Of a DNA stretch of 64,000 nt, positions 1 to 57,205 are shown piece after piece. The DNA lies in the NCBI GenBank assembly GCA_964016885.1, contig OZ024741.1, positions 29,822,001 to 29,886,000 of the forward strand. The letters run 5' to 3'. The notes below the pieces were generated by a model, which was given only the letters and a program-made list of their open reading frames with translations, was not told where the DNA came from and made no database searches. The translations under genes and the position numbers were made by a program. This DNA is from Eledone cirrhosa. Its lineage: Eukaryota. How positions within the stretch are numbered: the first letter of the stretch is position 1; each line of letters opens with the position of its first letter.

Positions 1-3000
1 AATCCAACAAAACACGAAACACCCCTCCAGCAACAAACAAAACCAAACCTGCCCCTCCCCTCTTCGAAACACTCACACCATCCGAAAAAAAGACATTACA
101 CTATACTTACATCAACAGAAACAATAATAAATTAAATGAACTCATAAACAATAATCCTTCGGTACAAACCGAAGGTGTAAACTTTGTTTCTTCAGAAAAC
201 TACCCACATTTAAAATTAATAAATATCCCAATGAACCTCTACCAAAAACTAAAAAGGATTTTAAGGAGGACGTAGGACCACCCTCTGTGAAACCCATAAA
301 CCGCGTCCTACTAAAAAGCTTTCCCCCTCCCCTTCCCCTCCCCACCACAACTCCAAACACCCCAACCCCACCACACACTGACGACCCCACACCACCACAA
401 GACACCCCTTCACCCAACACCCCCGACCCCATGGAAGTCGTGCGACCCGAACCCCGGGAAGCAGAAAGGTAGGTCTCTACACTCTCCTTTGGTTTTGCCG
501 CCCACATGGATGTGTTAAGAGTAGGATGTTTGAATGCACGTGGCCTGGGCTCAACTTGGAAGCAAGCAAAGCTTCTAAATGACCTCAGGTCACGTTATAA
601 ATGTAATAGTTATCTGTGAGACTCGGATCATCGTCATGCGGCAGCTGGCCCCTACCTTCGATGACTTTGAGGTGCATGCATCTCTCTGTCAACCTGGAGG
701 TGGGGGTGGGGCTGCCGTACTGCTGGAAAAACACCTGGGTCTCGCCGTACAGGTTGTTCACTCGGACCCGGAGGGTCGTTTGTTGAGCTGGACGTTGGCA
801 GTAGGGAAGGTGCAAAGCCTTGACACTGGTCGCCGTCTACTCCCCTTACGGAGCTGAACGGCCCGACTTCTTCCAGCGTTTGGAGACTTTTCTGGGAACG
901 TCGCGTTCCCTGCTTCTAGCGGGGGATTGGAATGACATCCTAGATGCACGTTGGGACTATGCAGGAGCATGTCCTAATAGAGGAGGTGTAACAGCCTCAA
1001 GGGGTTACTCGACCATTATAACTTGGTCGATAGATATCGACTAGATTTTCCAACTGTGCCAACCTGGACTTGGACGAACCACAGTGGTCAATCTAGATCG
1101 TACTTAGATAGATTCTTAGTTAGAAGTAAGGATACGGACATATTAAGCAGTTCAGAAATACTCACGGTTGGCTATACGGATCACAAATTAGTGACCTGCG
1201 TAGTCAATCTCGAGAAAACACATAAACAGGGTCCCGGTTACTGGAAACTTAATTTCTCTTTACCGACAAAAGAGACTTACAGAAACCGGATTAGGAGATT
1301 AGTTAAGGAGAGGTTGACGGGTGCAATCGTCAACAACCGATGGTGGGTATCTCTCAAAAGAGAGATTAGAACAGAATCAATAAGTTATAGCAAGATGTTA
1401 GCTGCTGATAGGAATAGAAACGAGAAAGAATTAACAGGTAAATTAGAAGAGGCAATCAAGAGCGAAGATGTGGCCAGAGTGCTGGCATCGAGGACGGCCT
1501 TGAACCAGTTTTTCGATGCAAAGCACGAAGGCTGCGTCATTCGAAGTAAAATACGTGCTCTAGGTAATGAGGGGGCCAAAGCCGTTGGCTGGGCCCGCGT
1601 GACAGAAGCTAAGAGTGGAAATCGATCCACCATCCGGTCGTTGCAAGACGAAGATGGACGGGTGATCCAGGAGCCTAAGCAGATGTGCGAGGCCTTTCAA
1701 AGACACTTTGCCTGATTGTTCGGGGAAGGAGAGGGTCCGGGCGGGGGCGTGGATTTCGGTCCATACCTCGATGGCCTACCGCGTCTCTTGAGCGAAGAGG
1801 CAGAGTCCTACGAGGGACCAATCTCGGCTGATGAGATCGGAGATGCGCTGAGCCAATGCAGCAGACGCGAATCTCCAGGTCTCGATGGTATACCTTACGA
1901 ACTTTATTTAGCAATGCCGGTCTTCTCCGAACTCCTCGAAGCGGTCTACTGCAATTGGCAGCAGAACGGGAGAATTCCTTGTTCTGTAGCCAAGGGCGTA
2001 GTCACGCTGGTGAGGAAGGACGAGAACAAGGGAGATAGTATAAATAATTTTCGGCCCATAACCCTGCTAAACACAGAGTTAAAGATTATGGCCAAGGTGT
2101 TAGCAAAGAGGTTGGCGCTTGTCGTGGGTGGCCTGGTGGGAGATGCGCAGACATGTGCTATCCCATCCAGGTCCATTCACGATAACCTCCACCTCATGCG
2201 ATACATCATAGAGAGGCTTGGCAACAAACCCGGCTTCGGTGGGGCCCTTATCAACTCGGATCAGTCTAAGGCCTTCGATAGGGTCAACCATGGTTACCTG
2301 GATGCGGTGCTAGCGGCGGCTGGGTTCGGTCCTGTTTTCAGAAGCTGGATCACTGCCTTACATAGCATCCACATCTGTTCTAGGATCAAGGTGAACGGCT
2401 ACCTTTCGAAGCCGTTCGAAATCACACGATCCATTCGACAGGGGTGCCCTCTCTCCTCCCTTCTGTACGTATTGACTCTCGAGCCTTTACTGAGGAAGTT
2501 GGAGTTGTTGCAGGGTATCCCCCTGGAACCAGGATTGAGCAAAGCGGTGTCGGCCTACGCCGATGACGTAACAGTAATGGTATCGACCGACTCGGAGATC
2601 GAGGCGATCGGTACCTTACTGGAGGATTACGAAAGGTTGTCAGGAGCGAAACTGAACCGGGAACAATCCATCGGGCTGCAACTCGGAACGTGGAGAGGCA
2701 GACCGATGCCTCCTGACGGTGTCGTCGGACACTGGACGGAGGGCCCGGTAAAGTTGCTTGGGGTCTGGTTTGGACCGGACCTCCAGGTGGAAAAGAACTG
2801 GAACGAGGTTACGAACAAGGTGTTTGCACTAACCCAGAAATGGGCCAAGTGTAAGCTGTCCCTAAAAGGCCGGGCAGAGGTGGCGAATATTTACATAGCG
2901 TCCGTCACTTACTACCGCCTGACTGTCGTGCCTTGCCCTAAGGAAACACTCACCACCATGGAACGCATGCTCTTTCAATTTCTTTGGAAGAAGCGCCCTC

Positions 3001-4152
3001 CTATGGTGAGAAGATCCATCTGCTGCCAACAACCTTCGAAAGGAGGGCTGGGGATGCCGTGGTTGATGATGCGTAGGAACGCATTAAGACTACGGCACCT
3101 ACAGGTATTCCTCACTGGTCAACCGGTGTGGGCTCCGTTCGTGAAACGAGCCTTTCCGAGACTCGTCTCGCTCACCGAGCTACAGTCCTGGGTCAAGCAA
3201 AGATCCGGAAAACTAGGAGACTGGCACACTGAGTGTGCTCAGGCGCTCAGGGCTTTCTGGCAAGCGGGCCAGGCCATCGGTGGAGAATCCACCTCATCAT
3301 TCTATAGAGGGCTGGTGGCTAGCAGGGGCGATGACACCCTTGGAGAGTCGCTGGACATGGAAGAAGACGAACTGGCCAGCCTGTTCGGTAGGACTTTCGG
3401 CCCAGGACCAATGGAAAACTTCCAGAAGTCACTGGCCTGGCAGTGCTACCCGGGGGCTCTACCCGTTCGAGAGAGGCTCTACAGACACGGGCGCCCGGGC
3501 AGGATCCCTCAAAAAAGATTTGCCCTAGATGCGTGCGTCACGAAGAAACCGTTGCGCACGCATTGGTGCAATGTCCGGGCGTGGCTGATCTGTGGGGCTA
3601 CGCCGAACGACTGCTATCGCGGGTGGCGCCTATTAAATTGACCGCCGAGTCCGTGATGACAATCAAACCGCCTCCCCTCTTCACAAAGGAAGCAAAGGCG
3701 GTTTTTCTGTGCGTAATAGCCATGTTGAAAGAGGTTGTTTGGTGGACACGATTGAAAGGTCTGAGGTCGGGCAACTTCCTCTCTGGCCATAGTCTGGTCT
3801 ACTTCTTCCGATATCACTTCGGAAGAAGGATAAGAATGGAGAGAGAGGTGCTTGGCCACAGGCAGTTTTATGAAAGGTGGGTGATAGTGGCGAGAATGGC
3901 TCGTGTAAATGGGCCTTCTCTGTATACCATCCTGTAGGTAAAGAAGTAAAGGAGAGGGGAGCACCTTCTCCATGTGCTCCCCGGGCAAAGGATTGCACAC
4001 TTTTTCGGGGGTGTGTGCAACCCCCATCACGTCCCTTCCCTTTTGAGGTTATTTTCGATTATTTTCATTTTATACCCTTTTCACTCGATTATATGTAAAC
4101 TCCCCCTTTGTATTTGTCCCTTCTTTTTATGCCTGTATGGTAAATAAAGAAA
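1..4152 (+). mobile_element. Tx1-clade (L1-like) non-LTR retrotransposon, copy 1; 5' end lies outside the window
   Basis: Pro/Thr-rich ORF1 tail ends at 472 and matches the ORF1 C-terminus of copy 2. ORF2 fragments have APE and RT motifs. The 3' UTR ends in AATAAAGAAA, followed by TCTATCTAT. Confidence 0.92.
506..3937 (+). pseudogene. Frameshifted ORF2 (APE endonuclease + reverse transcriptase + C-terminal Cys/His motif) of Tx1 copy 1
   Basis: Motifs LAGDWN, SYLDRFLV, YTDHKLV, GPGYWKLN, FRPITLLNTELKI, DQSKAFDRVNH, IRQGCPLS, AYADDV and CPRC..ETVAHALVQC are spread over several frames. Confidence 0.92.
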
Positions 4153-4190
4153 TCTATCTATAGATCTATCTATCAATCTTTCTATCTACC

Positions 4191-6675: not shown

Positions 6676-7045
6676 CTGATCGTAGCTAAGATGCTTCCAT
6701 TGGCGGTATGCCGGTTGAGCACTCTATGCCCTTACAGAGCAGAGTATGATATAATAGAAAAATAAAAATCAGTGATGTATCTGAAATCAATTTATTGTGT
6801 TACAATTGTTTCGCCGGCGACCAGCTCGAGACGCGATCATTGTGTGGATCTGTCTGATTCTGGACCCGCAGGTTCGACGGACATGTCTAAACGTCTAATG
6901 ATTTCGACGTGTCCGTCGAACCTCCGAGTCCAGAATCAGAGAGTTCCACACAATGATCGCGTCTCGAGCAGTCCGCTGGCAAAACAATAGTAACACACAA
7001 TAAATTGAGTTTAGATGCATCACTGCTTTTTCTTTTTCTATAATA
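6676..7045. mobile_element. Non-coding PLE-type fold-back element (arms ~6752-6887 / 6908-7042)
   Basis: Inverted repeat carrying only the HHR 3' half (GAAACAAUUGUA on the minus strand). Its tail resembles 62745-62820. Confidence 0.7.
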
Positions 7046-7074
7046 TATATATACACACACAGACGGTGTTTATA

Positions 7075-12007: not shown

Positions 12008-12037
<30 letters not shown>

Positions 12038-12042
<5 letters not shown>

Positions 12043-13058
12043 GTAAGTATGTATGTATGTATACGTACATACATATAAGTATACACACGTACATGCGCAC
12101 ATATATATATGCATGTATCGGTTTACCGAACATGTAAACAAACAAACAGCCCGAATTACGCCGTACAGTGTTTAGGCAACCACGTCACCTTTTTGTTCAA
12201 CACTGACACAGGAATGATGTACTAGTTTCAAGCTTATTAGCTATCGTCAGCATCGTATACCTTCCTGCCAGATGGTTGAATGTCTGAAAGTATATACTTT
12301 CCTTATGCATATTAACGGCTGAGCAGCCTAATTTGCATATCGAGTGGGTTAATCGGCTGGGCGCACCAAAAATGATAAATGAAATAGAATGAAACGAAAT
12401 TTCATTTCTCACTCTTAGTACGGCACTTACTTAAATGTAAGTATGTATGTATGTATACGTACATACATATAAATATACAGACATACAGTAGTATGTATAT
12501 ATATATACATACATGCCCACATATATATATATATATATATGCACGTATCGGTTTACCGAACATTTATTATAATGCTCGGTTTGTTTGTTTGTAAATTTCG
12601 TTTCATTCTATTCCATTTATCGTTTTCAGTGTGCCCGGCCGACTGAACTCACTCGATATGCAAATTAGGCTGCTCAGCCGTTATTATGCATAAGGAAAGT
12701 ATATACTTTCAGACGTTCAACCATCTGGCAGGAAGGTATACGATGCTGACGATAGCTAATAAGCTTGAAACTAGTACATCGTCCCTGTGTCAGTGTTGAA
12801 AAAAAACGTGACGTGGTTGCCTAAACACCGTACGGCGTAATTCGGGCTGTTTGTTTGTTTACAAACAAACAAACCGAGCATTATAATAAATGTTCGGTAA
12901 ACCGATACGTGCATATATATATGTGTGCATGTATGTATATATATATACATACTACTGTACGTCTGTATACATTTATGTATGTACGTATACATACATACTT
13001 ACATTTAAGTAAGTGCTGTACTAAGAGTGAGAAATACAATTTCGTTTCATTCGATTCC
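12038..13058. mobile_element. Two inverted units of the ~470-bp HHR repeat family (same family as 47992-50930)
   Basis: Forward unit ~12038-12592, inverted unit ~12593-13058. HHRs at - 12216-12254 and + 12740-12782. Confidence 0.85.
12740..12782 (+). ncRNA. Minimal type I hammerhead ribozyme
   Basis: acgaug-CUGACGA-uagc uaauaa gcuu-GAAAC-ua-GUA-caucgu, with a perfect 6-bp stem I and palindromic ACUAGU stem III. Confidence 0.85.
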
Positions 13059-13385
13059 ATTTATATATATATATAAAACACATGTGCTTCGGGTTTCCCA
13101 CTTCGGTTTGTTGTTTCCCGTTTTTATTTTCGCTTATTTTTCGGTGTCTTTTCATTTTTCTTCCCTCTTCCCTTCTGTTACTATTCTTTCTCTCTCTTTC
13201 CCTCTTTTTCACAATAACTTCCTTGAGTTATTGACGCACTGGGGTGAGACATATTGTCTTTAATCTTTAATGCTTTGAACTGTCCAAGACCCCCAGCAGA
13301 CAACTGATGAAGGAAAATGTTCTCCCGTTCTTGCTTTCCTCTTTTTATAAGTACACCTTATTCAGCAACTACACAGCCCGTTTAT

Positions 13386-15504: not shown

Positions 15505-15588
<84 letters not shown>

Positions 15589-15832
15589 TAGATATGTTTC
15601 TTTATTAGCCACAGGGGCACAAAAGAAGGGGACAATACAAAGGGGGAAGTTTACATACAATAAAAACGTGTAAAATGTTATCACAAATGCAATTTAAAAA
15701 GTTAGTCGATTTTACCCAATAGAGGGAGACAGTTTATATGGGTAACACATACCCCCGAAAAAATGTGCAACCCTCATCTCCAGGAGTACGAAGAGTTTGT
15801 ACTCCTTTCCTCTCCTCCTCCTTTTCCTCAAC

Positions 15833-18800
15833 CTACAGGCTGATATAGAGAGAAGGCCCATTCACTCGGGCCATTCTCGCCACTTTCACCCACCTTTCAT
15901 AAAACTTGCTGGGGTACAGCCCCTCTCTCTCCATCTTGATTCTTCTTCCAAAGTGGTATTTGAAAAAAAGAATCAGTTGTTGGCCGGAGAGAAAAGTGTC
16001 TGACCTCAGCCCTTTCAACCTTGTCCACCATACAACCTCTTTCGCCATAGCTATCACACAAAGGAAAACCGCCTCTCCTTCGTTTTTGAAGGAGGGTGGC
16101 GGTTTGATCATGACAATGGACTCGGTGATCAACCGGATTGGTCCCACCCGCGAAAATAGTCGTTCTACATAGCCCCAAATGTCAGTGACGCCCGGGCAGT
16201 GTATGAATGCGAGCGCGACGGCTTCTTCGTCTCGCACGCAGCTCGGACAGATCTATTTTGCAGGGTCCCTGCCCGGGCCCCCATGTCTGTAGAGCTTGTC
16301 TCGAACTGGTAGAGCTCCTCGGTAGCACTGCCAGGCCAGGGACTTTTGGAAGTTGTCCATCTTTCCCGGGCGGAAGGTCCTACCGAACAGACTGGACAGT
16401 TCGTCTTCCTCTACGCTTAGAGTTTCACTGAGCGCGCCGTCGCACTTGCTGCGGATCAATCCTCTATAGAATGACGAAGTGGAGTCTCCACTGATCGCCG
16501 GGTCCGCCTGCCAGAGGGCTGTGAGCGCCTGAGCACATTCAATGTGCCAGTCGCCCATTTTCCTCGGTCTTTGCTTGACCCAGGACTGCAGTTCGGTCAG
16601 CGAGACGAGTCGTGGGAAGGCTCGCCTCACGAACGGGGCCCACACCGGTTGTCCGGTGAGGAATACGTAAAAAAGCCGCAGCCTGAGCACGTGTTTGCGC
16701 ATCGTCAACCACGGCATCCCCAGCCCTCCGTTAGAAGGGTGTTGGCAGCAGATGGATCTTCTCACCAAAGGAGCCCGCCTCTTGCAAAGGAATTGGAAGA
16801 GCGCGCGCTCCATTTTGGCGAGCGTTTTGGCTGGACAAGGCACGACAGTCAAGCGGTAGTAGATAGCGGACGCTATAAAAGTGTTCGCCACCTCCGCTCG
16901 ACCTTTCAAGGATAGTTTGCACTCGGCCCACTTCTGGGTAAGTGCAAACACCTTGGCCGACACCTCGTTTCAGTTCTTCTCCACCTGGAGGTCCGGACCA
17001 AATCAGACCCCGAGCAGCTTTACTGGTCCTTCCGTCCAGCGTCCGACGACGCCATCGGAAGGCATCGTTCTGCCTCTCCACGATCCGAGTTGCAAACCGA
17101 TGGACTTGTCCCGGTTAAGCTTCGCTCCTGTGAAACTTTCGTATTCCTTCAGTAAGGTGCCGACTTCCTCGATTTGCGAGGCGCTCGACACCATTACTGT
17201 CACGTCGTCGGCGTAGGCCGACGTCGCTTTCCGCAGTCCCGGTTCCAGAGGGATGCCCTGCAATAGCTCCAACCTCCGCAGTAGTGGCTCGAGAGTCAGT
17301 ACGTACAGAAGGGAGGAGAGAGGGCATCCCTGTCGAATGGATCACGTAATATGGAACGGCTCCGAGAAGTAGCCGTTCACCTTGACCCTTGAGCAGATGT
17401 TGCTGTTGTGCATTGCAGCAATCCAGTCCCTGAACACGGATCTGAATCCTGCCGCCTCGAGCACCGCATCCAGGTAACGATGGTCAACCCTATCGAAAGC
17501 CTTAGACTGATCCAAGTTGATCAGGGCCCCACCGAAGCCGGGTTTACATCCTACCCTCTCTATGATGTATCGCATGAGGTGGAAGTTGTCGTGTATGGAC
17601 CTGGTCGGGATTGCGCATGTCTGCGCTTCTCCCACCAGGTTCTCGACGACAAGCGCTAGCCTCTTTGCCAACACCTTGGCCAAAATTTGTAACTCTGTGT
17701 TTAGCAGAGTTATGGGCCGGAATTTGCCTATGTCATCCCCCTTATTCTCGTCCTTCCTGATTAGTGTGACCACGCCCCCGGTTACAGAACTGGGAATTCT
17801 CCCGTTCTGTTGCCAGTTGTAGCACACCGCTTCCAGGAGACCGGAGAATAAGTCAGGCATTGCTACGTAAAGTTCGTAGGGTAGACCGTCGAGACCTGGA
17901 GATTTGCGTTTGCCTCATTGGCTCAGAGCGTCCCCTATCTCAGCGGCTGAAAACGGCTTTTCGCAGAACTTTGCCTCGCTGTCCGAAAGTCGCGGTAGGC
18001 CGTCGAGGCATGGACCGAAATCCATAGCCTCTCCCGACACGCCGCCCCTCCCGAACAGTTGAGCAAAGTGCCGCTGAAAGGCCGCACACATCTGCTTCGG
18101 CTCACATATCACGCGTTCGATTTGGTCCTTCAAAGACCGAATCGTGGACTTTTTGCAACTTATTGCCTCCGTCACTCGGGCCCAGCTAACAGCTTTGGCT
18201 CCCTCGTTTCCCAGAGCACGTATTTTGCTTCTGACAACGCAGCCCTCATGCTTTGCGTCGAAGAACTGGTCCAAGGCCGTTCTCGTTGCTAGCACGCTGG
18301 CTACGTTGCCACTACTAATTGCCTCTTCTACTTTATCTACCAGTTCCTTCTCGGTTCTATTTCTATCTAACGCTAATTCTTTACTAAAAACTATCGAGTC
18401 TAATCTAACTGCCCTCTTGAGAGAGTACCACCATCTGTTGTTGACAATGGCCCCTGTCAAGTGCTGTTTAACTAAGGTGCTAATCCGTCTTCTGTAGACT
18501 TTGCTTGTCGGTAACAATAAGTTCAGCTTCCTGTAGCCGGGTCCTTGTCTATGGGTTTTATCAAGGTTGGCCATGCAGGTCACTAGTTTGTGATCTGATT
18601 AGGCAACCATGAACATTTGTGGACAGCTTAACATTTCCCTATCCTTATTTCTAACTAGAACCCTATCTAGGTACGATCTAGATGTTCCGCTACGATTAGT
18701 CCACGTCCACAGTGGCGCAGTCGGAAAATCTAGTCGATATCTATCGGCCAGGTCAAATCGGTCGATTAACTGTTTGAGGCTGTTACACCCCCCTTTATCG

Positions 18801-19270
18801 GGACATGCTCCCACATAGTCCCAACGTGCATCTAGGATTCCATTCCAGTCCTCCACTAAAAGCAAGGAGCGGGACGTTCCCAGAAAAGTCTCTAGACGTT
18901 TGAAGAAGTCTGGCCGCGGTGTCCCGGATGGGGCATATGCGGCCACCAGCCTGAAGGCTCCACCTTCACTACCGTCAACGTCTAGGACCACCAGTCGACC
19001 CTCCGGGTCCAGATGTACCGTCTGTGTTACGAGGCCTAGGTGTTTCCGCAGCAAAACGGCAACTCTGCCCCCACCCCCCGGTTGACAGAGAGATGCGTAG
19101 ATCTCAAGGTCATCGAAGATGGGGGCCAGCTGTCGCTCGCTGTGGATCCTGGACTCGCAAATGGCTACCACCTCCATACTGTGCGACCTGAGGTCGTTTA
19201 AGAGTTTGCCCTGTTTCCAGGGCATCCCCAGGCCGCGTACGTTCACACATTCAACTCTTATATTGGCCAT
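15833..19270 (-). pseudogene. Tx1 ORF2 (APE + RT), multiple stops and frameshifts
   Basis: CVNVRGL, AICESR, SYLDRVL, LDQSKAFDRVDH and AYADDV, colinear with copy 1. Confidence 0.92.
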
Positions 19271-19307
19271 GCTGGTGCTGAAAAGTTAAAAGAGGAAAAG
19301 AGATCAC

Positions 19308-21233
19308 TCACCCTTCGTCTCCTGGGGACCAGGCTGCACGATTTCCATGGGGGTGTTGGAGGGGTTGTCTGGATGGGTGGTGGTTTCCGGCGGGGTGGGA
19401 ATGGAGATGTTTGGTGGGGTGGGGATCGGGTGGGATGGGGGTGTCTGGGGTGGGGAGACATTTGAGAACGACGCGATTAAGGTGTTTCACGCAGGAATTC
19501 CCCACATCCTTCTCAAATGTTTCTTTTAGGGACCTATAAGTTTGTATAGGGACCCTAATCAGTTTTAGGATCAGTTTTCTGTTAATTTTAATAGAGTGGG
19601 CGAAAGTTTTCCCTTCGGTTTTCACCGAAGGGTCATTCGTGATCGTCTCCATTAGTGTTTTGTTTTCAGTGTTTATGTAAGTGTAAGTGTAATTTTCTTG
19701 TGTTGTGTTTGTTTTTGTCTGTAGTTCTTGTGTGTGCTTTCGTTTTGTTGTAGGTATTTTGTTTTCAGGAGGTGGGGGTTTTGTGTGTGATGTTTTTGTT
19801 GTTTGTGTTGGTGGTTGTATGTTTGTGGTAGTGTTTGCTGGTTTTTTGCTTTTGTGATGTCTTTTCTTTCTTTTCGAGCGATGGGGTTCTCCCTCGTCTT
19901 CACTAGTTGATGGCGACATAGCCTCACCTGTTGTATCGTCTGTGTGATTGGGGAGGGGTATGTCTTGGGGAGCTGTTGTGTCTGTATGTGATTTTGCAGT
20001 GGTTTTAGATGGAGTGGGGTTGGGTGGGACTATGTTTGTTGTGGTTATTTTTGTGTGTTGGTGTTGCTGTTGTTGTGGTGGTGTTGGTGGTTGTGTTGTT
20101 TTGATGGGTGTCGGCAGAAGAGCCTTTTTTTGATTCATTAATTTAGGACAGGAAGCCCTCAGGTGACCCTTGCTAAAGTAATGGTAACATGAAGGCCGCC
20201 TACCCTCAACCGAAAAGTTTATGTAGGTGAGTCCGTCCAGGAGTACACGTTGTGGGATCATAGCTATTCGCTCTGGGGTCATTTTCACCAGAACTTCAAT
20301 GCTAGTCCCATTGAATACATCTCTGGGGGACTTTCCTACTGACAGTATTCTGTCTTCATCAAAATTGATGAAGCCGCACAGTATCCACCATATTTTCACC
20401 TTTGGTGTGACACTCGTGATTTTGATCTTTTGTGTCCTTTTTCCCATGTATGTAGGGAAAAAAGTATACAGGTTGGATAGAATTGGCGATACAGAGTAAT
20501 TTTGGGCCGTCAATTGATCCTTCGTGAGTACCTAAATACTCCCAAAAAGTTTGCTTCTTTGAATGAATGCAATATCATTCATTGAATTTTTGAAAACCAG
20601 TTCAATTTCTTTCTGTGACAATTGGACTGGTTTTCGGGAAGAATTGGAAACTGTCCTAAAAACTATCGTTTTGAGAGCAGTTTCCTTGCGAATTTCTACC
20701 GGAGAATTGATGCCCAAAGCACCATTTTTTTCGAAAGTGACATATCTCCTAGCGTCCTTTAAAAGTTGTTCGGCATTTGTTATGTTGAGATATATCAGTT
20801 CCTCCTTTTTTTGAACTGTCTGAGCAAAGGAGATTTTTGGTTTCTTTGTGTAATTAACCGTGTTGGTGGCGTTGTCATTATTGTTGTTATTGTTGTTGTT
20901 ATTCTTGTTGTCACCGATGTTGATATTATTCGTATTTTCCTTGGTGTTGGTGTTGGTGTTGGTGTTGTTGTTGTCTTTGATGCTGGTGTTATTGGTGTTG
21001 TCTTTATTTTTTTCTTTGTTGTTGTTATCATTGTTGTTTTTATCATCATTATTGGTGTTGCTGTTATTTTTGTTGTCATTGAACTGTTTGGTGTCATTTG
21101 TGTTGTTTGGATATGAATTTGTTTTTACATTTTCATTTCGTCTTTCCATCAAAGGGAAGAATGACGATGTTGACTGCGAGCTTTGTAGTCTTACCGACTC
21201 TCCACCACCATTATCGTTGGACGCAGCGTTCAT
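19308..21233 (-). pseudogene. Tx1 ORF1 (gag-like), broken near 20520
   Basis: Asn-rich N-terminus, SFAQTV motif, degenerate zinc knuckle EGRRPSCYHYFSKGHLRASCP, and Pro/Thr-rich tail. Confidence 0.8.
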
Positions 21234-21520
21234 AACGTAATCAAACTTTTACAATATTTTTTAAAAAATTCGATGGAGAAAAAGTGTTTCAAACGAATAT
21301 TTCGCCCCTATAGGGGCGAAAATGGGTTGACCCACCACCTGAGGGTCAAGACGGGGGGGGGGGGGGGGCAAGTTACACGATATACAATTTAACTGAAAAC
21401 TCACGTTTTTTTTCGTACATAAATTAACGGAAACTTCTCCGCGAAGTTACACACGTCTGATAGAGAGATAGATAGAGAAATATACACGGGTGTGTATGAT
21501 TGTGTATAGAAGATTATATT

Positions 21521-21878
21521 AATAAAAGGAATTCCAATTTTGTCTGATTTACTCGTTTTATTTACTATCCTTTAAACTGTATAATGGTATTAGAATGAAA
21601 TAGTATGGTAGAATATTAAATGTTAATTGAACAAGTACTTTCATGCTTTCGCAATCTTCAGGTCCATAGTGTGTGGTGACAGCCAAGTTTGCAATTTTCA
21701 ACAGCTGAAAATTGCAAACTTGACTGTCACCACATATTATGAACCTGAAGATTGCGAAAGCATGAAAGTACTTGTTCAATTAACATTTAATATTCTACCA
21801 TACTATTTCATTCTAATACCATTATACATTTTAAAGGATTGTAAATAAAACGAGTAAATCAGACAAAGTTAGAATTCC

Positions 21879-21883
<5 letters not shown>
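21521..21883. mobile_element. Near-perfect ~360-bp palindrome with an HHR in each arm
   Basis: Centre is near 21701. The + HHR at 21740-21778 reads ugaac-CUGAAGA-uugc GAAA gcau-GAAAG-ua-CUU-guuca. The mirror is at ~21627-21665. Confidence 0.88.
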
Positions 21884-21944
<61 letters not shown>

Positions 21945-29690: not shown

Positions 29691-29906
29691 GATGTGTTGG
29701 TGTAAATGGTAGCACAGTGGTCCGGATAACCAAAGATGTGGGTTCGACTCCCATGTACATCAATACTCATCTTTTTCCATTTTACCGAGGGTTCTTGACC
29801 CCACTATCAGGCTAAATAATTTCTTTAATTTCTTTAGTCAAAATACGGCGATAACTTACATTTCTACTATTTTCAAACCCACTCCGGTTTCGAAAATATT
29901 CTTACT
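29691..29906 (+). mobile_element. Element with a tRNA-cloverleaf head (29691-29762), ending in (TA)n
   Basis: Acceptor GATGTGT/GTACATC, D stem GTGT/GCAC, T arm GTGGG-TTCGACT-CCCAT. The body is shared with 36253-36457. Confidence 0.75.
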
Positions 29907-32671: not shown

Positions 32672-32717
32672 GTATATATGTATATATAAGTATATATAGT
32701 CTATCAAAGTTCTTTCG

Positions 32718-33392
32718 TTGCACATCTGCAACATCATCAGTGGTACAATTATTGTTCCCTCCTATTGTATTGTATATCACCGCTACCACACCATCATCAA
32801 CAAAAGCACCATCAAACTCTCCTACAGCACCACACCTAACTTCACACAAAACATCGTCTCCACAAACAACAAAAAACTCAACCCTTATGGAAGATTTAAC
32901 CTAAATATCAGTGGAGAGCCGACCAGGAGGCGTAACTGTCCTGATAGATCCATGTGCCCTCTTAACAACAGATGCCGAGATCGTAATGGGATCTACCTGT
33001 GCAACGTGAGGACGGACACCTCAAACAAAGCTTATATAGGATTAACCGCTTGTGACTTCAAGACCTGGCTCTACCAACACCGACATACTTTCCGAAACCC
33101 GGCCCGGCGACATGCCACTACACTTACGGGCCACATCTGGGACCTCAAAGATAATAATATAACCTACAATCTCACTTGGAGCTTACGGTCCAGAGCTAAC
33201 TCTTACGTGGGAGCAGGCCGTCCGTGCACCTTATGCTCGGAGGAAACATTACAAATGCCGTTTTGGAAGGACCAACTCCTAAACAAGAAAGACGAACTGG
33301 TAACCGCATGCAAACACAGATTGCGTAGGACGTACCTCACCCTCAAACACCATAATGCCCGGGACACACACACACACACACACAAGGGCTGA
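32718..33392 (+). pseudogene. Penelope-like element GIY-YIG endonuclease (5'-truncated ORF)
   Basis: IKLSYS..NC....CPLNNRC...GIY...YIG...FK...H...F...TL..HIWDLK...CTLC.EE...LNKKDE...CKH. Confidence 0.88.
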
Positions 33393-35660: not shown

Positions 35661-36072
35661 CGATTTTAAATAAATGGAAACTATATTTATAAAACTATAT
35701 TTATTCTATTATATATATTCCAAGGGTACTAAAAACCTTGGTATGCTTTCATCAGATAAAATACAAAGAGTGTTTTATAAATTTTGACATAGCCAAGGAA
35801 AACTTACCTTATCAGTTGAATATTCCAAGGTATGTTTTCCTTAGCTATGTCAAAATTTATAAAATACTCTTTGTATTTTATCTGATGAAAGCGTACCAAT
35901 GTTTTTGACCCCCTTGAAATATATATAATAAAATAAATATGGTTTTATAAATATAGTTTCCATTTATTTAATATCACTGAATATTTACTCCAGAAACTTG
36001 TCGAGTGCTCTGAATCAGCTATAAACATTTATATTTGTTGAATTTCCAACAAATTAAATATCCCTTCCACTT
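35660..36072. mobile_element. PLE-type fold-back with HHR (+ 35874-35935) and tail hairpin
   Basis: Arms are ~35661-35810 / 35826-35977. HHR reads uauuuuau-CUGAUGA-aag...cuu-GAAA-uauaua-UA-auaaaaua. Confidence 0.85.
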
Positions 36073-36084
36073 ATATATATATAT

Positions 36085-36456
36085 AAAATAGAATAGCTTT
36101 CACCGTATTTTTGACTAAAGAAATTTTAGCCTGATAATGGTGTTTAGAACCCTCAGATAAATGGAAACAGATGAGTATTGACGTACATGGGATTCGAACC
36201 CACATATTTGGTTATCCAGACCACTGTGCTACCATTACACCAACACATCACCATGTGTTGGTGTAATGGTAGCACAGTGGTCTGGATAACCAAATATGTG
36301 GGTTCGAATCCCATGTACGTCAATACTCATCTGTTTCCATTTATCTGAGGGTTCTAAACCCCATTATCAGGCTAAAATTTCTTTAGTCAAAAATACGGTG
36401 AAAGCTATTCTATTTTCTAATTTCAAACCTGCTCACTGTTTTAAAACATACTTACT

Positions 36457-43222: not shown

Positions 43223-43645
43223 TATTTACGTATCGAGAGAGAGAAAAAAAGGGGAGGATAGGTGATACATATAGTTCTTTGCCAAGTAGCGTATGTCAAT
43301 GGTGCTCGATACTAATGCCGGCAGTATTAAATATTCGAAGTGTTAATATTTAGTGGGCTAGAGAATTAGCAGAGCGTAAGCACGCGGGAAAGTAAGAAAT
43401 CGGAGAATAGACCGTTAAAACATGTTTATTTAAAACAGCACCTACGTACGTTTCGCCCGGTTGGGCTTCTCAAGGGCATAAATAATCAAAAGTGTTCCAT
43501 ACATTGCTCGGAATGAGTTTTTTGGGTTAAATCTACGTCAAGGTTCAATGCTCGCAAAAATACCTTGTTTTGATTTTGCAGCAGGTCAAGGGAGGTAACT
43601 CTGGCCGGTGTTAGGGCAGTCCCCCCCCCCCTTAGAGGATACTGC

Positions 43646-44029
43646 TTGACTGATAGGGTTATATATAGATGCACTATAACTAGCCACAATAGCGTTAAAC
43701 ACTATATAGGGGCTACCTCCGGCCTGTTCAAAATTAGGTTTCGAACACATCTCCACTCCTTCACAAATAAAAAACTAAGACACTCCACTTCGCTCGCGGA
43801 CTACATCACATCACTAAAGGACTTAAACATCAGCTTCTCCACGCACTGGGATATTGTCGGAAGGGCTGCACCGTACAACTTCAAGAGGAAATGCGATCTT
43901 TGCCTCATGGAGCTCTACCACATCATAACTGCACCCCACGAGCTCATCAACAGCAGAGCTAAAACAGCGATAAGTTGTACACATCGCTTAAAAATATCCT
44001 TCTTCAGATGGGTTAAGGATGAAGAGTGA
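43646..44029 (+). pseudogene. PLE GIY-YIG endonuclease fragment
   Basis: VIYRC...YIG...FKIRFRTHLHSF...TSLADYI..LK...W.I...CDLCLME...INSR....SCTH. Confidence 0.88.
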
Positions 44030-44396
44030 AACCGTGCACCGGATCTCCCTGCAACAAGTCTTAACACCCCGGTGGGCGAGCGCTGCAAAATAACACCCAG
44101 GAAACTATCCTTGCATACCAGATCCAGTCTCAAACGACTCAGACAAACAGATGCAGCAAAAGAAAACTCTCAAAATAAGCGTTGATTACATGCGTATCGA
44201 CAATGGTAAGGTTGTAATCTCATCTCGTAGCGGATAAAAAATTTGTCCGAGAAAGACTGCCCTAACCGGCCAGAGTTACCTCCCTTGGCCTGCTGCAAAA
44301 TCAAAACAAGCTATTTTTGCGAGCAATGAACCTTGACGTAGATTTAACCCCCAAAACTCTTTCCGAGCAATGTAAGGAACACTTTTGATTATTTAT

Positions 44397-44435
44397 GTCC
44401 TTGAGAAGCCCAACCGGGCGAAACGTACGTAGGTG
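44397..44435 (+). ncRNA. Hammerhead with U3-A8 core variant (mirror - ~43438-43477)
   Basis: cc-UUGAGAA-gcc caaccg ggc-GAAAC-guac-GUA-gg, with the same core in both arms. Confidence 0.7.
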
Positions 44436-44517
44436 GTGTTTTAAATAAACATGTTTTAACGGTCTATTCTCCGATTTCTTACTCCCCCCCCCCATATATA
44501 TATATATATATATATAG

Positions 44518-45035
44518 TTGTTATATAGTAAGGTGCATTATTGGTTGTGTAATATGGTCCAATAACTTTATGTTAGCAATATTAAGTTCTCCACGATTTT
44601 GTATATCTCCAATTCCATTCGAGGGAACAGCTAGATGATGTAAAACGGAGTATAAGTATCAAAATGAAAATTCGAAGGCAAGGTAAAATTCCAATCATTT
44701 AATCACGACACATGTTTCAATAAGAGATAGATCGATTGTGAAGCCATGATCGATTACCACTGATCTCATTAGGTGAAAATGAATTGCCTTCAAATTCTTG
44801 ATATGAGGGAGAAAACATAACGATGTTCTCTCTTCTAGAATTCATTCCCTCATATTCTGTGAGAGAACATCGTTATGTTTTCTCCCTCATATCAAGAATT
44901 TGAAGACAATTCATTTTCACCTGATGAGATCAGTGATAATCGATCATGGCTTCACAATCGATCTATCTCTTATTGAAACATGTGTCGTGATTAAATGATT
45001 GGAATTTTACCTTGCCTTCGGCTTTTCATTTTGAT
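44518..45035. mobile_element. PLE-type fold-back with HHR (+ 44917-44990)
   Basis: Arms are ~44657-44832 / 44861-45035. HHR reads ucac-CUGAUGA-gau...auu-GAAAC-augu-GUC-guga. Confidence 0.85.
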
Positions 45036-45138
45036 ATATATATATATATACACCTATATATATGCATGTATATATGCTTATATATATGTACAGACATATA
45101 TATGCATATATAAGTATATATACATATATATATATATA

Positions 45139-45358
45139 GTAACGAGTAAGACCCCGACGGCTGAGCTCAAGCCGTTTCGACGGCTAATTCTGGACTAAAA
45201 AAAGTTTTTTTTAATTTTTAGTCCAGAATTAGCCGTCGAAACGGCTTGAGCTCAGCCGTCGGGGTCCTACTCGTTCACATTACCCACTCTACTACCCTAA
45301 GTATTGAGTACTTGGTGCGTTATGGTCCACCTGGTTCCTTACCACATTTCCTTCGTTA
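45139..45358. mobile_element. Small fold-back of the 34.3-kb PLE family
   Basis: Arms are 45141-45200 / 45215-45275. The HHR 3' half is followed by the tail hairpin. Confidence 0.82.
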
Positions 45359-45382
45359 TATATATATATATATATATATATA

Positions 45383-45750
45383 CTATGAATAACGATTTCT
45401 AAACTCAAACAGTCCTTTACAATGAAATAGCTCAAAGTAAGAAGTATTTCTGAGCCGTGTAATACAAGTTAATATAAATTAATATATATGATAAACACAA
45501 ATACCAACATATAAGTGTTTGTATTGTAAATGACTAAGTTAGCTAGATTGAAAAATACTAATTATAATAATACAGTTTGGCCATTTGCCAAAATGATTTG
45601 TTTTTATTGATTTATTATTTTAAATGGAGACAGGCAAACTGTATTATTATAATTAGTATTTTTCAATCTAGCTAACTTAGTAATTTACAATACAAACACT
45701 TATATGTTGGTATTTGTGTTTATCATATATATTAATTTATATTAACTAGT
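45383..45750. mobile_element. Fold-back member of the 28.7-kb family
   Basis: Arms are ~45468-45580 / 45633-45748, and the sequence matches 29130-29340. Confidence 0.78.
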
Positions 45751-46256: not shown

Positions 46257-46337
<81 letters not shown>

Positions 46338-46344
<7 letters not shown>

Positions 46345-47094
46345 AGGTAAATATCTCTCTGAGTGCTAAGTACCGAGAGAGATATATAGTGTGTCTATAA
46401 TATAATTGGTGTTCAATGGTACTACTTTGAGATACCAGAACTATAAAAATTAAGAAGAGCTGAACAAACAAACATTAAACAATTCTTTTAAAAAAATTAA
46501 AAAAATCTTTAACCTTTTGTAAAGCGAAACCGCCGGTAATAGCATTATGAACTGGTAAATATTTAAATCATTTTTTAAATTCTTTTTAAAGAATTATTTA
46601 ATGTTTGTTTGTTCTGCTCTTCTTAATTTTTATATCTCGAATTAGTACCATTGAACAATTATATTATAGACATACTATATATCTATATGGGTACTTAGTA
46701 CTCAGAGAGATATTTACCTCATTTTATGAATTTTTTTTAACTATGGTGAGAAACAACATCCGTTGCTGCTTACTGCTATTTTTTTTAGCAGAATAACCAT
46801 CAAAGAGTCTGTAATATTTCCCGCTTTTTTAGTGGCCAGTTCATGTGTGGGTCATTCTAACGGCCTTACTCACACTAGCTGGGAGTTGGCAATATATTTT
46901 CAGATGGTGAGACTAGTTCCTACTCTATGGAAATAGCTATCTGATGAACTTTACTTTTCCGTTAGAAATTCTCCGAATCTCTAACCTTTTGTAAAGCGAA
47001 ACCGCCGGTAATAGCATTATGAACGGGTGAATATTTAAATCATTTAAAAAAATATTTTAAAAGAATTGTGTAATGTTTGTTCTGCTCTTTTTAA

Positions 47095-47948: not shown

Positions 47949-48076
47949 AGAATATAAATATATATAAGATTATATATATCTCTCTATATATAAATGTAAG
48001 TATGTATGCATACGTACATACATATATGTATACAGACGTACAGTAGCATGCATATATATATATATATACATATATA

Positions 48077-48307
48077 TACATTAAAATACATGATAAACAC
48101 AAAACGTGTTTGCATTGCAACAGGCAGTCAGCTATTAATAGCTGACTGTCTGTTGCAATGCAAACACGTTTCGTGTTTATCATGTATTTTGTGTTTATCA
48201 TGTATTTATCATGTATTTTAATGTATGTTTAACTGCTCGGAAATGACCCTTTCCTGGAGCTTAATTATTGTAAAGGACTGAGAGCTTATTCTCAAAATAT
48301 TATATAG
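48077..48307. mobile_element. Small fold-back nested in the (TA)n of the first array unit
   Basis: Palindrome centred near 48136 (cagtcagctattaatagctgactg), with a tail related to 45400-45460. Confidence 0.78.
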
Positions 48308-49228
48308 TATATATATATATACATATATACATACAGGTACACATACATATATGCACGCATCAGTTTAGCGGACGCTTATTATAACGCCGCTTTGTTCGTT
48401 TGTCAACAAACTGAACAGCCTGAATTTATGCCATACGGTGTTATGGCAACCACGTCACGTGTTTGTTCAACACTGACACAGGAACGATGTACTAGTTTGA
48501 AGCTTGTTAGCTATCATCAGCACCGTTTACCCATCTGCCAGAGAGTTGAACGTTGGAAAGTATATACATTCCTTATGAAAATTAATGGCTGAGCAGCCTA
48601 ATTTGCATATTGAGTGAGTTAAATCGGTCAGGCATACCGAAAACGATAAGTTGAAAAAAAAAATGAAAACGAAATTTCATTTCTCACTCTTAGTATGGCA
48701 CTTACTTAAATGTAAGTATGTATGCATACGTACATACATATATGTATACAGACGTACAGTAGCATGCATATATATATATATACATATATACATACAGGTA
48801 CACATACATATATGCACGCATCAGTTTAGCGGACACTTATTATAACGCCGCTTTGTTCGTTTGTCAACAAACTGAACAGCCTGAATTTATGCCATACGGT
48901 GTTAAGGCAACCACGTCACCTTTTTGTTCAACAGTGACACAGGAACGATGTACTAGTTTCAAGCTTGTTAGCTATCATCAGCACCGTTTACCCATCTGCC
49001 AGATAGTTGAACGTTCGAAAGTATTTACTTTCCTTATGAAAATTAACGGCTGAGCAGCCGAATTTGCATATTGAGTGAGTTAAATCGGTCAGGCATACCG
49101 AAAACGATAAGCTGAAAAAAAAATTGAAAACGAAATTTCATTTCTCACTCTTAGTATGGCACTTACTTAAATGTATGTATGTATGCATACGTACATTCAT
49201 ATATGTATACAGACGTACAGTAGCATGC

Positions 49229-49261
<33 letters not shown>

Positions 49262-49700
49262 TACATACAGGTACACATACATATATGCACGCATCAGTTT
49301 AGCGGAAGCTTATTATAACGCCGCTTTGTTCGTTTGTCAACAAACTGAACAGCCTGAATTTATGCCATACGGTGTTAAGGCAACCACGTCACCTTTTTGT
49401 TCAACACTGACACAGGAACGATGTACTGGTTTCAAGCTTGTTAGCTATCATCAGCACCGTTTACCCATCTGCCAGATAGTTGAACGTTCGAAAGTATATA
49501 CTTTCCTTATGAAAATTAACGGCTGAGTAGCCTAATTTGCATATTGAGTGAGTTAAATCGGTCAGGCATACCGAAAACGATAAGTTGAAAAAAAAATGAA
49601 AACGAAATTTCATTTCTCACTCTTAGTATGGCACTTACTTAAATGTAAGTATGTATGCATACGTACATACATATATGTATACAGACGTACAGTAGCATGC

Positions 49701-49763
<63 letters not shown>

Positions 49764-50220
49764 TATAGATATATATATATATATATATACAGGTACACAT
49801 ACATATATGCACGCATCAGTTTAGCGGACGCTTATTATAACGCCGCTTTGTTCGTTTGTCAACAAACTGAACAGCCTGAATTTATGCCATACGGTGTTAA
49901 GTCAACCACGTCAACTTTTTGTTCAACACTGACACAGGAACGATGTACTAGTTTCAAGCTTGTTAGCTATCATCAGCACCGTTTACCCATCTGCCAGAGA
50001 GTTGAACGTTCGAAAGTATATACTTTCCTTATGAAAATTAACGGCTGAGCAGCCTAATTTGCATATTGAGTGAGTTAAATCGGTCAGGCATTACGAAAAC
50101 GATAAGTTGAAAAAAAAAATGAAAACGAAATTTCATTTCTCACTCTTAGTATGGCACTTACTTAAATGTAAGTATGTATGCATACGTACATACATATATG
50201 TATACAGCCGTACAGTAGCA

Positions 50221-50262
<42 letters not shown>

Positions 50263-50477
50263 TACATACAGGTACACATACATATATGCACGCATCATTT
50301 ATATATATATATATATATGCATGCTACTGTACGTCTGTATACATATATGTATGTACGTATGCATACATACTTACATTTAAGTAAGTGCCATACTAAGAGT
50401 GAGAAATGAAATTTCGTTTTCATCTTTTTTTTCAACTTATCGTTTTCGGTATGCCTGACCGATTTAACTCACTCAAT

Positions 50478-50525
50478 ATGCAAATTAGGCTGCTCAGCCG
50501 TTAATTTTCATGAGGAAAGTATATA
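50478..50525 (+). promoter_or_regulatory. Putative snRNA-type promoter cassette (octamer ATGCAAAT, PSE-like segment, TATATA), present in every unit
   Basis: ATGCAAAT at 50478-50485 and TATATA at 50520-50525, with HHR stem I starting at 50559. The octamer is also intact at 12331, 12658, 48601, 49062, 49535 and 50057. Confidence 0.4.
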
Positions 50526-50759
50526 CTTTCGAACGTTCAACTATCTGGCAGATGGGTAAACGGTGCTGCTGATAGCTAACAAGCTTGAAACTAGTACATC
50601 GTTCCTGGGTCAGTGTTTGAACAAAAAAGTGACGTGGTTGCCTTAACACCGTATGGCATAAATTCAGGCTGTTCCGTTCGTTGACAAACGAACAAAGCGG
50701 CGTTATAATAAGTGTCCGCTAAACTGATGCGTGCATATATGTATGTGTACCTGTATGTA

Positions 50760-50813
<54 letters not shown>

Positions 50814-50954
50814 TGCTACTGTACGTCTGTATACATATATGTATGTACATATGTATACATACTTACATTTAAGTAAGTGCCATACTAAGAGTGAGAAATG
50901 AAATTTCGTTTTCATTTTTTTTTTCAACTTCTCTATATATATATATGTATATAA

Positions 50955-57205
<6,251 letters not shown>

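What the first reader, a model, noticed from the sequence alone, without database searches (positions are those of the whole stretch)
47992..50930. Retrozyme/satellite-2-like tandem array: one minimal hammerhead per ~470-bp unit
Seen: each unit has on the minus strand aacggug-CUGAUGA-uagc uaacaa gcuu-GAAAC-ua-GUA-caucguu and no real ORF. The diverged copies at 12.0-13.1 kb differ in tolerated ways: N7 U to C, a loop II change, and G-U to A-U in stem I. That pattern suggests selection on the fold. Established: minimal type I HHRs with palindromic stem III cleave as dimers, and tandem HHR repeats (newt satellite 2, schistosome SMalpha, non-LTR retrozymes) yield monomeric, often circular RNAs. 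Inference: multimeric transcripts self-cleave to ~470-nt monomers or circles that are reinserted by a PLE RT. The head-inverted end of the array matches the PLE insertion geometry seen throughout this window. Copies at 48483 (G12C) and 50559 (A6C) have core mutations, and the 49417 copy has a changed stem III loop.
Basis: partly seen in the sequence, partly recalled or inferred. Interest (0 to 1): 0.75.

Follow-up and report, generated by a model that had tools for sequence, protein, structure and literature searches.

The report
Two-armed, Penelope-mobilised hammerhead retrozyme
This is one insertion of a very abundant non-coding repeat whose ~460-base units each carry a predicted self-cutting RNA motif, and its back-to-back layout in TA repeats matches the footprint of Penelope-type jumping genes, which likely copy it from a small, probably circular RNA.

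Summary
Confirmed with corrections. Window 47993-50929 is a non-coding array with five hammerhead (HHR) motifs: four on the minus strand, one on the plus strand of an inverted arm. The HHR has canonical type I architecture, not the 'minimal' PLE type. Its core has 26,988 exact matches in the genome (control 0). Across about six subfamilies, 0 of 24 core/stem II/III columns vary, against 71 of 256 elsewhere, and one helix I pair covaries. All 72 two-orientation arrays examined diverge head-to-head; 51 end at two fixed sites about 60 nt apart, mostly in (TA)n. That is the Penelope-like element (PLE) 'tail' footprint, also seen in a young PLE family of this genome. Truncation points ignore the cleavage site (2 of 86, 2.05 expected), fitting a circular or uncut template. 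Cleavage, expression and circularity are untested, and no partner PLE was identified. It is a new member of the known animal non-LTR retrozymes; the insertion geometry was not described in the papers I read. This scan already noted the same picture for sister repeats elsewhere in this genome.

The parts
47993..50929 (.). Whole two-armed insertion of the retrozyme family (young subfamily)
47981..47992 (+). Left copy of a 12-nt direct repeat, likely target-site duplication (low complexity)
50930..50941 (+). Right copy of the 12-nt direct repeat
47993..50300 (-). Left arm: four units plus a 5'-truncated piece; outer (3') end at the 'short' site, unit position ~460
50297..50929 (+). Right (inverted) arm: truncated piece, one unit and tail
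50871..50929 (+). ~59-nt 'tail' (unit positions 1-59), present on this end only
   Evidence: PLE tail described
48483..48527 (-). HHR copy 1, G12C, predicted inactive; predicted cut 3' of 48490
48944..48988 (-). HHR copy 2, intact core; predicted cut 3' of 48951
49417..49461 (-). HHR copy 3, loop 3 UA to CA (helix III palindrome broken); predicted cut 3' of 49424
49939..49983 (-). HHR copy 4, intact core; predicted cut 3' of 49946
50559..50603 (+). HHR copy 5 in the inverted arm, A6C, predicted impaired; predicted cut 3' of 50596
49062..49069 (-). Octamer-like box (also at 48601, 49535, 50057 on minus and 50478 on plus); resembles the box at -76/-78 of host U6 genes; candidate internal promoter element
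49701..49789 (.). Internal (TA)n tract of a unit, expanded here; the source of period variation
48077..48307 (.). Unrelated nested palindromic insert in unit 1, flanked by a 22-nt direct repeat (48055-48076, 48308-48329)
12020..13064 (.). Second, older two-armed insertion of a diverged subfamily (HHRs at 12213 minus, 12739 plus; tail on the right)

Best explanation
This array is one insertion of a high-copy, protein-less repeat whose units carry a conserved hammerhead motif and whose insertions form two divergent arms ending at two fixed sites in (TA)n, most likely because a Penelope-type reverse transcriptase copies a self-cleaved, probably circular unit RNA from both ends of a DNA break. Shown in DNA: copy number, dispersal, fold conservation, arm polarity, the two end sites, the (TA)n target, and read-through of the cleavage site. 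Inferred steps: (1) an internal snRNA-type promoter drives read-through transcripts, likely by Pol II since the unit has T4-T9 runs (about 0.45); (2) the HHR cuts after GUA (unit 218/219) to give ~460-nt monomers (0.75); (3) a host ligase circularises them (0.6); (4) a PLE endonuclease cuts both strands of (TA)n and each 3' end primes at one of two internal sites ~60 nt apart (0.85; a Hydra-type partner about 0.55); (5) the RT runs round the circle for 1-15 units and the two truncated cDNAs join head-to-head; (6) copies then decay about neutrally, and some arrays grow further by DNA duplication.
For: 26,988 exact core matches, backwards control 0; 8,299 exact copies of the 45-nt HHR of this subfamily. 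0 of 24 core/stem II/III columns vary between subfamilies against 71 of 256 elsewhere, Fisher p 6e-4, in 68 regions picked by a non-HHR pattern. Helix I pair 185/221 is G.U 34, U.G 17, A-U 11 of 68; 96% of cells paired on 20 sequences, 0 of 500 shuffles as high. Two-orientation arrays: 58 of 58 and 14 of 14 divergent; one short end plus one tail end in 39 of 58 and 12 of 14. Outer flanks TA-rich in 90 of 116 against 498 of 2140 background. A young autonomous PLE family in this genome has the same short/long ends ~72 nt apart in (TA)n. A PLE RT cuts and extends both strands and starts at two internal sites that define the tail. Truncation points within 5 nt of the cut: 2 of 86, 2.05 expected, and 0 of 28. 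Arms of up to 15 near-identical units. 16 of 45 two-armed multi-unit arrays have a private variant in all units of both arms. The unit folds better than shuffles without its TA tract, z -3.7.
Against: No cleavage, transcript or circle was observed. Rfam gives only a sub-threshold match. The U10.1.U11.1 mismatch weakens helix II, and helix III has probability 0 in the monomer fold (expected of such models). Only 1 of 9 predicted Xenopus retrozyme dimers cleaved in vitro. For the PAc element, HHR mutants did not affect insertion and uncut RNA was the main substrate. Other 31-nt windows of the unit are as conserved as the HHR window. Covariation rests on one pair and few subfamily events (pairs changed on both sides: 435 of 500 shuffles as high). 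The opposite arm was closer than the nearest foreign unit in only 9 of 35 arrays. Two arrays show higher-order repeats. No DNA similarity to the two PLE families tested. No significant A>G editing bias: 12 against 5, p 0.14. The U1/U2 promoter profile scores best at the predicted start but not above shuffles, 70 of 200.
Confidence: 0.65

Rival explanations
1. Same element and same PLE machinery, but the template is an uncut linear multimer from an existing array. The HHR acts at another stage (5' trimming, RNA turnover) or only with protein help, and long arms are inherited or regrown by DNA duplication.
For: Unprocessed RNA was the dominant substrate for PAc in vitro, and no reads ended at its HHR site. 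Absence of stops at the cleavage site fits this equally well. One array alternates two unit variants at 14 sites and one has a ~6-unit higher-order repeat.
Against: 5' truncation would shorten arrays each round, yet arms of 9-15 near-identical units exist and most long arrays hold almost only single-unit variants. Variants fixed in all units of both arms (16 of 45 arrays) point to a one-unit bottleneck. The strictly kept catalytic core argues that cleavage matters for spread.
Confidence: 0.25
2. An orphan pseudo-LTR or satellite, amplified mainly at DNA level (unequal crossover, conversion, eccDNA), with the HHR a passive relic.
For: Post-insertion substitutions hit the core about as often as the rest: 5 of 736 against 134 of 14,749. 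17 of 125 units have a broken core. Li et al. discuss local tandem amplification from pLTRs.
Against: Dispersal over many chromosomes, fixed polarity in 72 of 72 two-orientation arrays, two fixed end sites and (TA)n targeting are signs of an RNA-templated route. The core is invariant across subfamilies 4-16% apart. No homology to the pLTRs tested.
Confidence: 0.06
3. A SINE-like element mobilised by an ordinary LINE with twin priming; the inversion has nothing to do with PLEs.
For: LINE fragments with RT are present in the window. 5' inversions by twin priming are known for L1 (recalled).
Against: Twin priming (recalled) gives one fixed 3' end and an inverted piece of upstream sequence, not two arms that both start near the same site with a one-sided tail. 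The geometry matches the published PLE pattern and this genome's PLEs. There is no poly(A) tail.
Confidence: 0.04

Closest known systems
Metazoan non-LTR retrozymes (Cervera and de la Pena 2020, PMC7229834, parts 2-4 of 6 read; review PMC7761336, passages and section 8 read)
   Same: Non-coding tandem units with one canonical type I HHR each, GC 37% (<50%), many thousands of copies, self-paired fold, coexistence with PLEs. U.U at the base of helix II with a 2-bp helix III, as in axolotl HHR_Amex2.
   Different: Unit 461-522 nt, at or above their 150-450 range; internal (TA)n tract. Two-armed inverted insertion with tail and (TA)n target is not described there ('inverted' 0 hits in PMC7229834 main text; its supplement was unreadable). 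Expression and circles were shown there, not here.
Vertebrate non-LTR retrozymes as PLE derivatives (Li, Clavereau and Pollet 2026, 10.64898/2026.07.22.740005, parts 1-3 of 5 read; supplements closed)
   Same: Tandem HHR units within their 51-972 bp range; proposed PLE mobilisation.
   Different: They link the two by pLTR homology and co-occurrence; here the link is insertion geometry and no pLTR homology was found. No mollusc among the classes they list.
Penelope-like elements, including non-autonomous ones (Craig et al. 2021, 10.1101/2021.04.23.441226, passages read; Frangieh et al. 2024, PMC11167929, parts 1-2 of 4 read)
   Same: [quoted passage not shown]
   Different: No ORF; tail ~60 nt rather than 30-40; canonical rather than minimal HHR; arms are multimers of one short unit.
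Minimal PLE hammerheads (Cervera and de la Pena 2014, PMC4209133, parts 1-2 of 4 read)
   Same: Type I topology; palindromic positions around helix III.
   Different: Those have helix II of 7-8 bp, a bulge after A9, G10.1-C11.1 and a short helix I; none of these holds here.
Newt satellite 2 (via PMC7229834 and passages of PMC2220036; Coats et al. 1994 not held)
   Same: Tandem HHR unit; reported internal snRNA-type Pol II promoter, paralleled by the candidate box here.
   Different: 330-bp unit with a 1-bp helix III needing dimers; the promoter here is a sequence resemblance only.

Membership tests
Metazoan non-LTR retrozyme | [quoted passage not shown] | tested here: met
Metazoan non-LTR retrozyme | Canonical type I HHR architecture (6-bp helix I, 4-position helix II, loops 1 and 2 kept) | tested here: met
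   Aligns to the HH9 model position by position (sub-threshold score); loops conserved; pairs kept
Metazoan non-LTR retrozyme | No protein coding; GC below 50% | tested here: met
   Longest ORF 54 aa; GC 0.37
Metazoan non-LTR retrozyme | No LTR, PBS or PPT | tested here: inconclusive
   No LTR-type layout and no tRNA match in the array; PBS and PPT were not searched specifically
Metazoan non-LTR retrozyme | TSD longer than 4 bp when present | tested here: inconclusive
   12-nt repeat here; 22 of 57 arrays have a non-pure-TA repeat of 6 nt or more, but many are low-complexity chance
Metazoan non-LTR retrozyme | [quoted passage not shown] 'active' criterion) | tested here: met
   48944, 49417 and 49939 keep all core nucleotides; 49417 has a changed loop 3
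Metazoan non-LTR retrozyme | Self-cleavage in vitro | not testable with these tools
   Needs a transcription assay
Metazoan non-LTR retrozyme | Expression as linear and circular monomer RNA | not testable with these tools
   No RNA holder listed
Metazoan non-LTR retrozyme | Autonomous PLEs in the same genome | tested here: met
   Two young families with long open frames
PLE-mobilised (non-autonomous) element | Inverted 5'-truncated arm, tail on one end only, microsatellite target | tested here: met
   72 of 72 divergent; 51 of 72 short end plus tail; TA flanks 90 of 116
PLE-mobilised (non-autonomous) element | Sequence similarity to the 3' end or pLTR of an autonomous PLE | tested here: inconclusive
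   None with 2 families tested; other families in the genome were not tested
Minimal PLE hammerhead (Cervera 2014) | Long helix II, bulge after A9, G10.1-C11.1, short helix I | tested here: not met
Autonomous PLE | RT plus GIY-YIG ORF | tested here: not met
snRNA-type internal promoter | Host-like upstream boxes at host-like spacing | tested here: inconclusive
   12 of 12 match to one U6 box, box present in 4 of 5 distinct U6 upstreams, but box-to-TATA spacing 41 against 45-48; TCAG-to-TATA 26 nt, within the U1/U2 spacings; profile not above shuffles

The most novel reading that the evidence does not exclude
A self-contained RNA-circle retroelement: it carries its own snRNA-type promoter and ribozyme inside the circle, and a PLE dimer primes at two sites on one circle from both ends of a (TA)n break and rolls round it, so each array is a genomic record of rolling-circle reverse transcription. 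This would turn the proposed retrozyme life cycle into a directly testable mechanism with mapped start sites.
Probability: 0.4. Interest if true: 0.7.

Novelty: new member of a known kind. Interest (0 to 1): 0.45.

Why it matters
How animal retrozymes get back into DNA is proposed (PLE RT on circles) but, in the papers read, supported only by co-occurrence and pLTR homology. This family gives mechanistic DNA evidence: template polarity, two RT start sites ~60 nt apart, the target, and read-through of the cleavage site. It supplies a defined substrate for testing circle against linear templates with a PLE protein in vitro. With about 27,000 exact cores it is also a sizeable, ORF-less part of this genome. 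The class itself is known, and this scan has noted sister repeats many times in this genome, which caps the surprise of this one locus.

Tried and rejected
Expression: no RNA holder listed. Four runs of unknown kind, held as contigs, were laid on one unit; they show family variants but cannot show ends or circles. Rfam: no HHR at gathering score; the miRNA hits are TA-tract noise. RNA-editing scars: A>G 12 against T>C 4 (p 0.077) and 12 against 5 (p 0.14) among array-wide variants; not shown for this family. Partner PLE: no similarity outside the TA tract to family A (927-aa frame, CxCX5C linker as in Hydra) or family B; Pfam does not recognise these proteins. Nearest-neighbour test of the two arms: weak, 9 of 35. 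TSD census: obscured by (TA)n. U6 and U1/U2 profile scans: not above shuffles. Cofolding two HHRs did not return the intermolecular helix III, so the dimer model is neither shown nor excluded. One search had one N too many; it shows only that a 15-nt helix II/loop 2 spacer is rare (41 matches). Tail end as a Pol III terminator: rejected, because the 12.6-kb subfamily ends at the same place without a T run there. No print record for this family in searches; the supplement of PMC7229834 and the supplements of the Li preprint could not be seen and may list such species.

Full report
OBSERVATION. The window is from a 3.0-Gb animal genome rich in (TA)n; a cephalopod is my guess from recall, not a call result. 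Between two copies of a 12-nt direct repeat (47981-47992, 50930-50941) lies an array of a ~460-nt unit. The left arm (47993-50300) has four units plus a truncated piece, with the hammerhead on the minus strand. The right arm (50297-50929) is inverted and holds a truncated piece, one unit and a ~59-nt extension. Periods are 461, 473 and 522 nt because an internal (TA)n tract varies. Unit 1 is interrupted by an unrelated ~230-bp insert with a 22-nt direct repeat. There is no ORF above 54 aa on the circularised unit. The 12.0-13.1 kb copies are a second two-armed insertion of another subfamily, about 12% diverged.

THE RIBOZYME. It aligns to Rfam's HH9 model with a 6-bp helix I, a helix II of U.U plus three pairs, a hexaloop and a short helix III, but at 18.6 bits against a cut-off of 52, and there is no hit at gathering score. 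This is the canonical type I layout, not the minimal PLE type defined in PMC4209133. The U.U mismatch has a precedent in axolotl HHR_Amex2, which cleaved 22% as a monomer and better as a dimer. To test selection without circularity I took 68 regions picked by a pattern outside the HHR. Columns with a second allele at 10% or more: 0 of 24 in core plus stems II and III, against 71 of 256 elsewhere (Fisher p 6e-4; columns and subfamilies are not independent). Between six subfamily clusters 4-16% apart, the C3-H17 stretch differs only at N7 and one loop 2 base. Helix I pair 185/221 occurs as G.U 34, U.G 17, A-U 11 and unpaired 6 of 68; two upper-helix pairs switch between G.U and A-U. On 20 sequences, 13 of them picked by the HHR pattern, 96% of cells pair; only one pair changes on both sides. 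Against: other windows of the unit are equally conserved, and private substitutions hit the core (5 of 736) about as often as the rest (134 of 14,749). So selection acts on the replicating lineage, not on inserted copies; 108 of 125 units keep an intact core.

GENOME-WIDE GEOMETRY. The core pattern has 26,988 exact matches, control 0; the 45-nt HHR of this subfamily has 8,299. Of 122 arrays in the first set, 58 had two orientations, 57 one, and 7 were cut by the fetch edge; all 58 diverge head-to-head on the HHR strand, and 39 have one end at unit 444-461 and the other with a 41-63-nt tail (two pairs are duplicates of each other). In 22 further arrays, 14 of 14 two-orientation arrays diverge and 12 have the end/tail pair. 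Outer flanks are TA-rich in 90 of 116 cases against 498 of 2140 random windows. The fixed ends point outwards on the HHR strand, which independently names that strand as the template RNA. Craig et al. describe this layout for PLEs (passages), and Frangieh et al. show that a PLE protein cuts and extends both strands and starts at two internal sites whose interval is the tail. This genome holds young PLEs: family A has 927-aa frames with a CxCX5C linker as in the Hydra clade; family B ends at two sites ~72 nt apart in (TA)n. Neither shares DNA similarity with the unit, so the partner is unnamed.

CIRCLE OR LINEAR TEMPLATE. The cut lies at unit 218/219, far from both start sites. Truncation points fall within 5 nt of it in 2 of 86 cases (2.05 expected) and 0 of 28; these points are BLAST estimates. 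Arms read through up to 15 cleavage sites. A cut linear monomer is therefore excluded; a circle or an uncut multimer remains. For the circle: units of both arms are as alike as units of one arm (median 0.007 each); 16 of 45 two-armed multi-unit arrays have a variant in every unit of both arms that is absent from the 8 nearest arrays; most of the 13 arrays with four or more units show almost only single-unit variants, including this one (19 singletons, 2 shared). Against: the opposite arm was nearer than any foreign unit in only 9 of 35 arrays; two arrays have higher-order structure; uncut RNA was the main PLE substrate in vitro; 8 of 9 Xenopus dimers did not cleave. No editing signature was found. 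No RNA data were available.

PROMOTER. An octamer-like box at unit 100-107 is exact in 19 of 23 regions picked by the HHR pattern. Following earlier notes of this scan, I compared it with host snRNA genes. Four of 5 distinct U6 upstreams have a similar box at -76 to -78, one matching 12 of 12, but the spacing to TATA is 45-48 there and 41 here. All 8 U1/U2 upstreams used have TCAGT at -56 to -58 and a TATA-like run near -30; the unit has TCAG 26 nt before TATA, predicting a start at A172, 46 nt before the cut. A U1/U2 profile ranks that site first but not above shuffles (70 of 200). T4-T9 runs in the unit would be expected to stop Pol III (recalled), so Pol II read-through is likelier, as reported for newt satellite 2 (passage). 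The box also lies in a predicted hairpin, which could explain its conservation. This step is a lead only.

VERDICT. It works like, and on every feature testable in DNA qualifies as, a metazoan non-LTR retrozyme; cleavage and circles are untested. New member of a known kind. The added value is the PLE footprint and mapped start sites, which I did not find described for retrozymes in the papers read (searches; two sets of supplements unseen). Earlier notes of this scan report the same for sister repeats in this genome; they are unchecked AI notes, not independent support. Interest 0.45.

Noticed in passing
window 43391-44483: 5'-truncated PLE (family A) with an inverted end copy; its pLTR holds a U3-A8 minimal hammerhead variant about 65 nt from the short end. 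The family has intact 927-aa frames elsewhere.
   Followed up: partly
window 32700-33392 and 45124-45360: Fragments of a second young PLE family (B; 784-aa frames, ~3.5-kb tandems) with short and long ends ~72 nt apart in (TA)n.
   Followed up: partly
window 5783/6432, 13568, 28004, 60754: Other hammerhead-like motifs, one as an inverted pair; two of them recur in other fetched loci.
   Followed up: no
window 48077-48307 and 45357-45545: Palindromic insert nested in unit 1 with a 22-nt direct repeat, about 70% like an element at 45.4 kb; class unknown.
   Followed up: partly
window-wide (e.g. 6749-7046, 21515-21891, 35662-35975, 44651-45042, 46337-46727): Many short perfect-looking palindromic insertions, possibly very truncated two-armed PLE-type events.
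   Followed up: no
window 29691-29762, 36179-36322: tRNA-like heads of a repeat, one as an inverted pair; likely a SINE.
   Followed up: no
window 52037-56424; 403-4188 and 15561-19379: Helitron-like ORF fragments, and two related LINE copies in opposite orientation.
   Followed up: no
L148 (G000:C1 ~19.315 Mb) and L003/L004 (G000:C4 ~305.64 Mb): One array alternates two unit variants at 14 sites (dimer template or duplication); another has a ~6-unit higher-order repeat.
   Followed up: partly
unit positions ~449-456 (window ~48713-48720, minus strand): The eight letters just before the short end equal the first eight of host U1 snRNA and sit in a small hairpin across the unit junction; may be chance.
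   Followed up: no
L205-L244: Host U1 and U2 genes have a TATA-like run near -30 plus TCAGT near -57; U6 genes have an octamer-like box at only -76/-78.
   Followed up: partly
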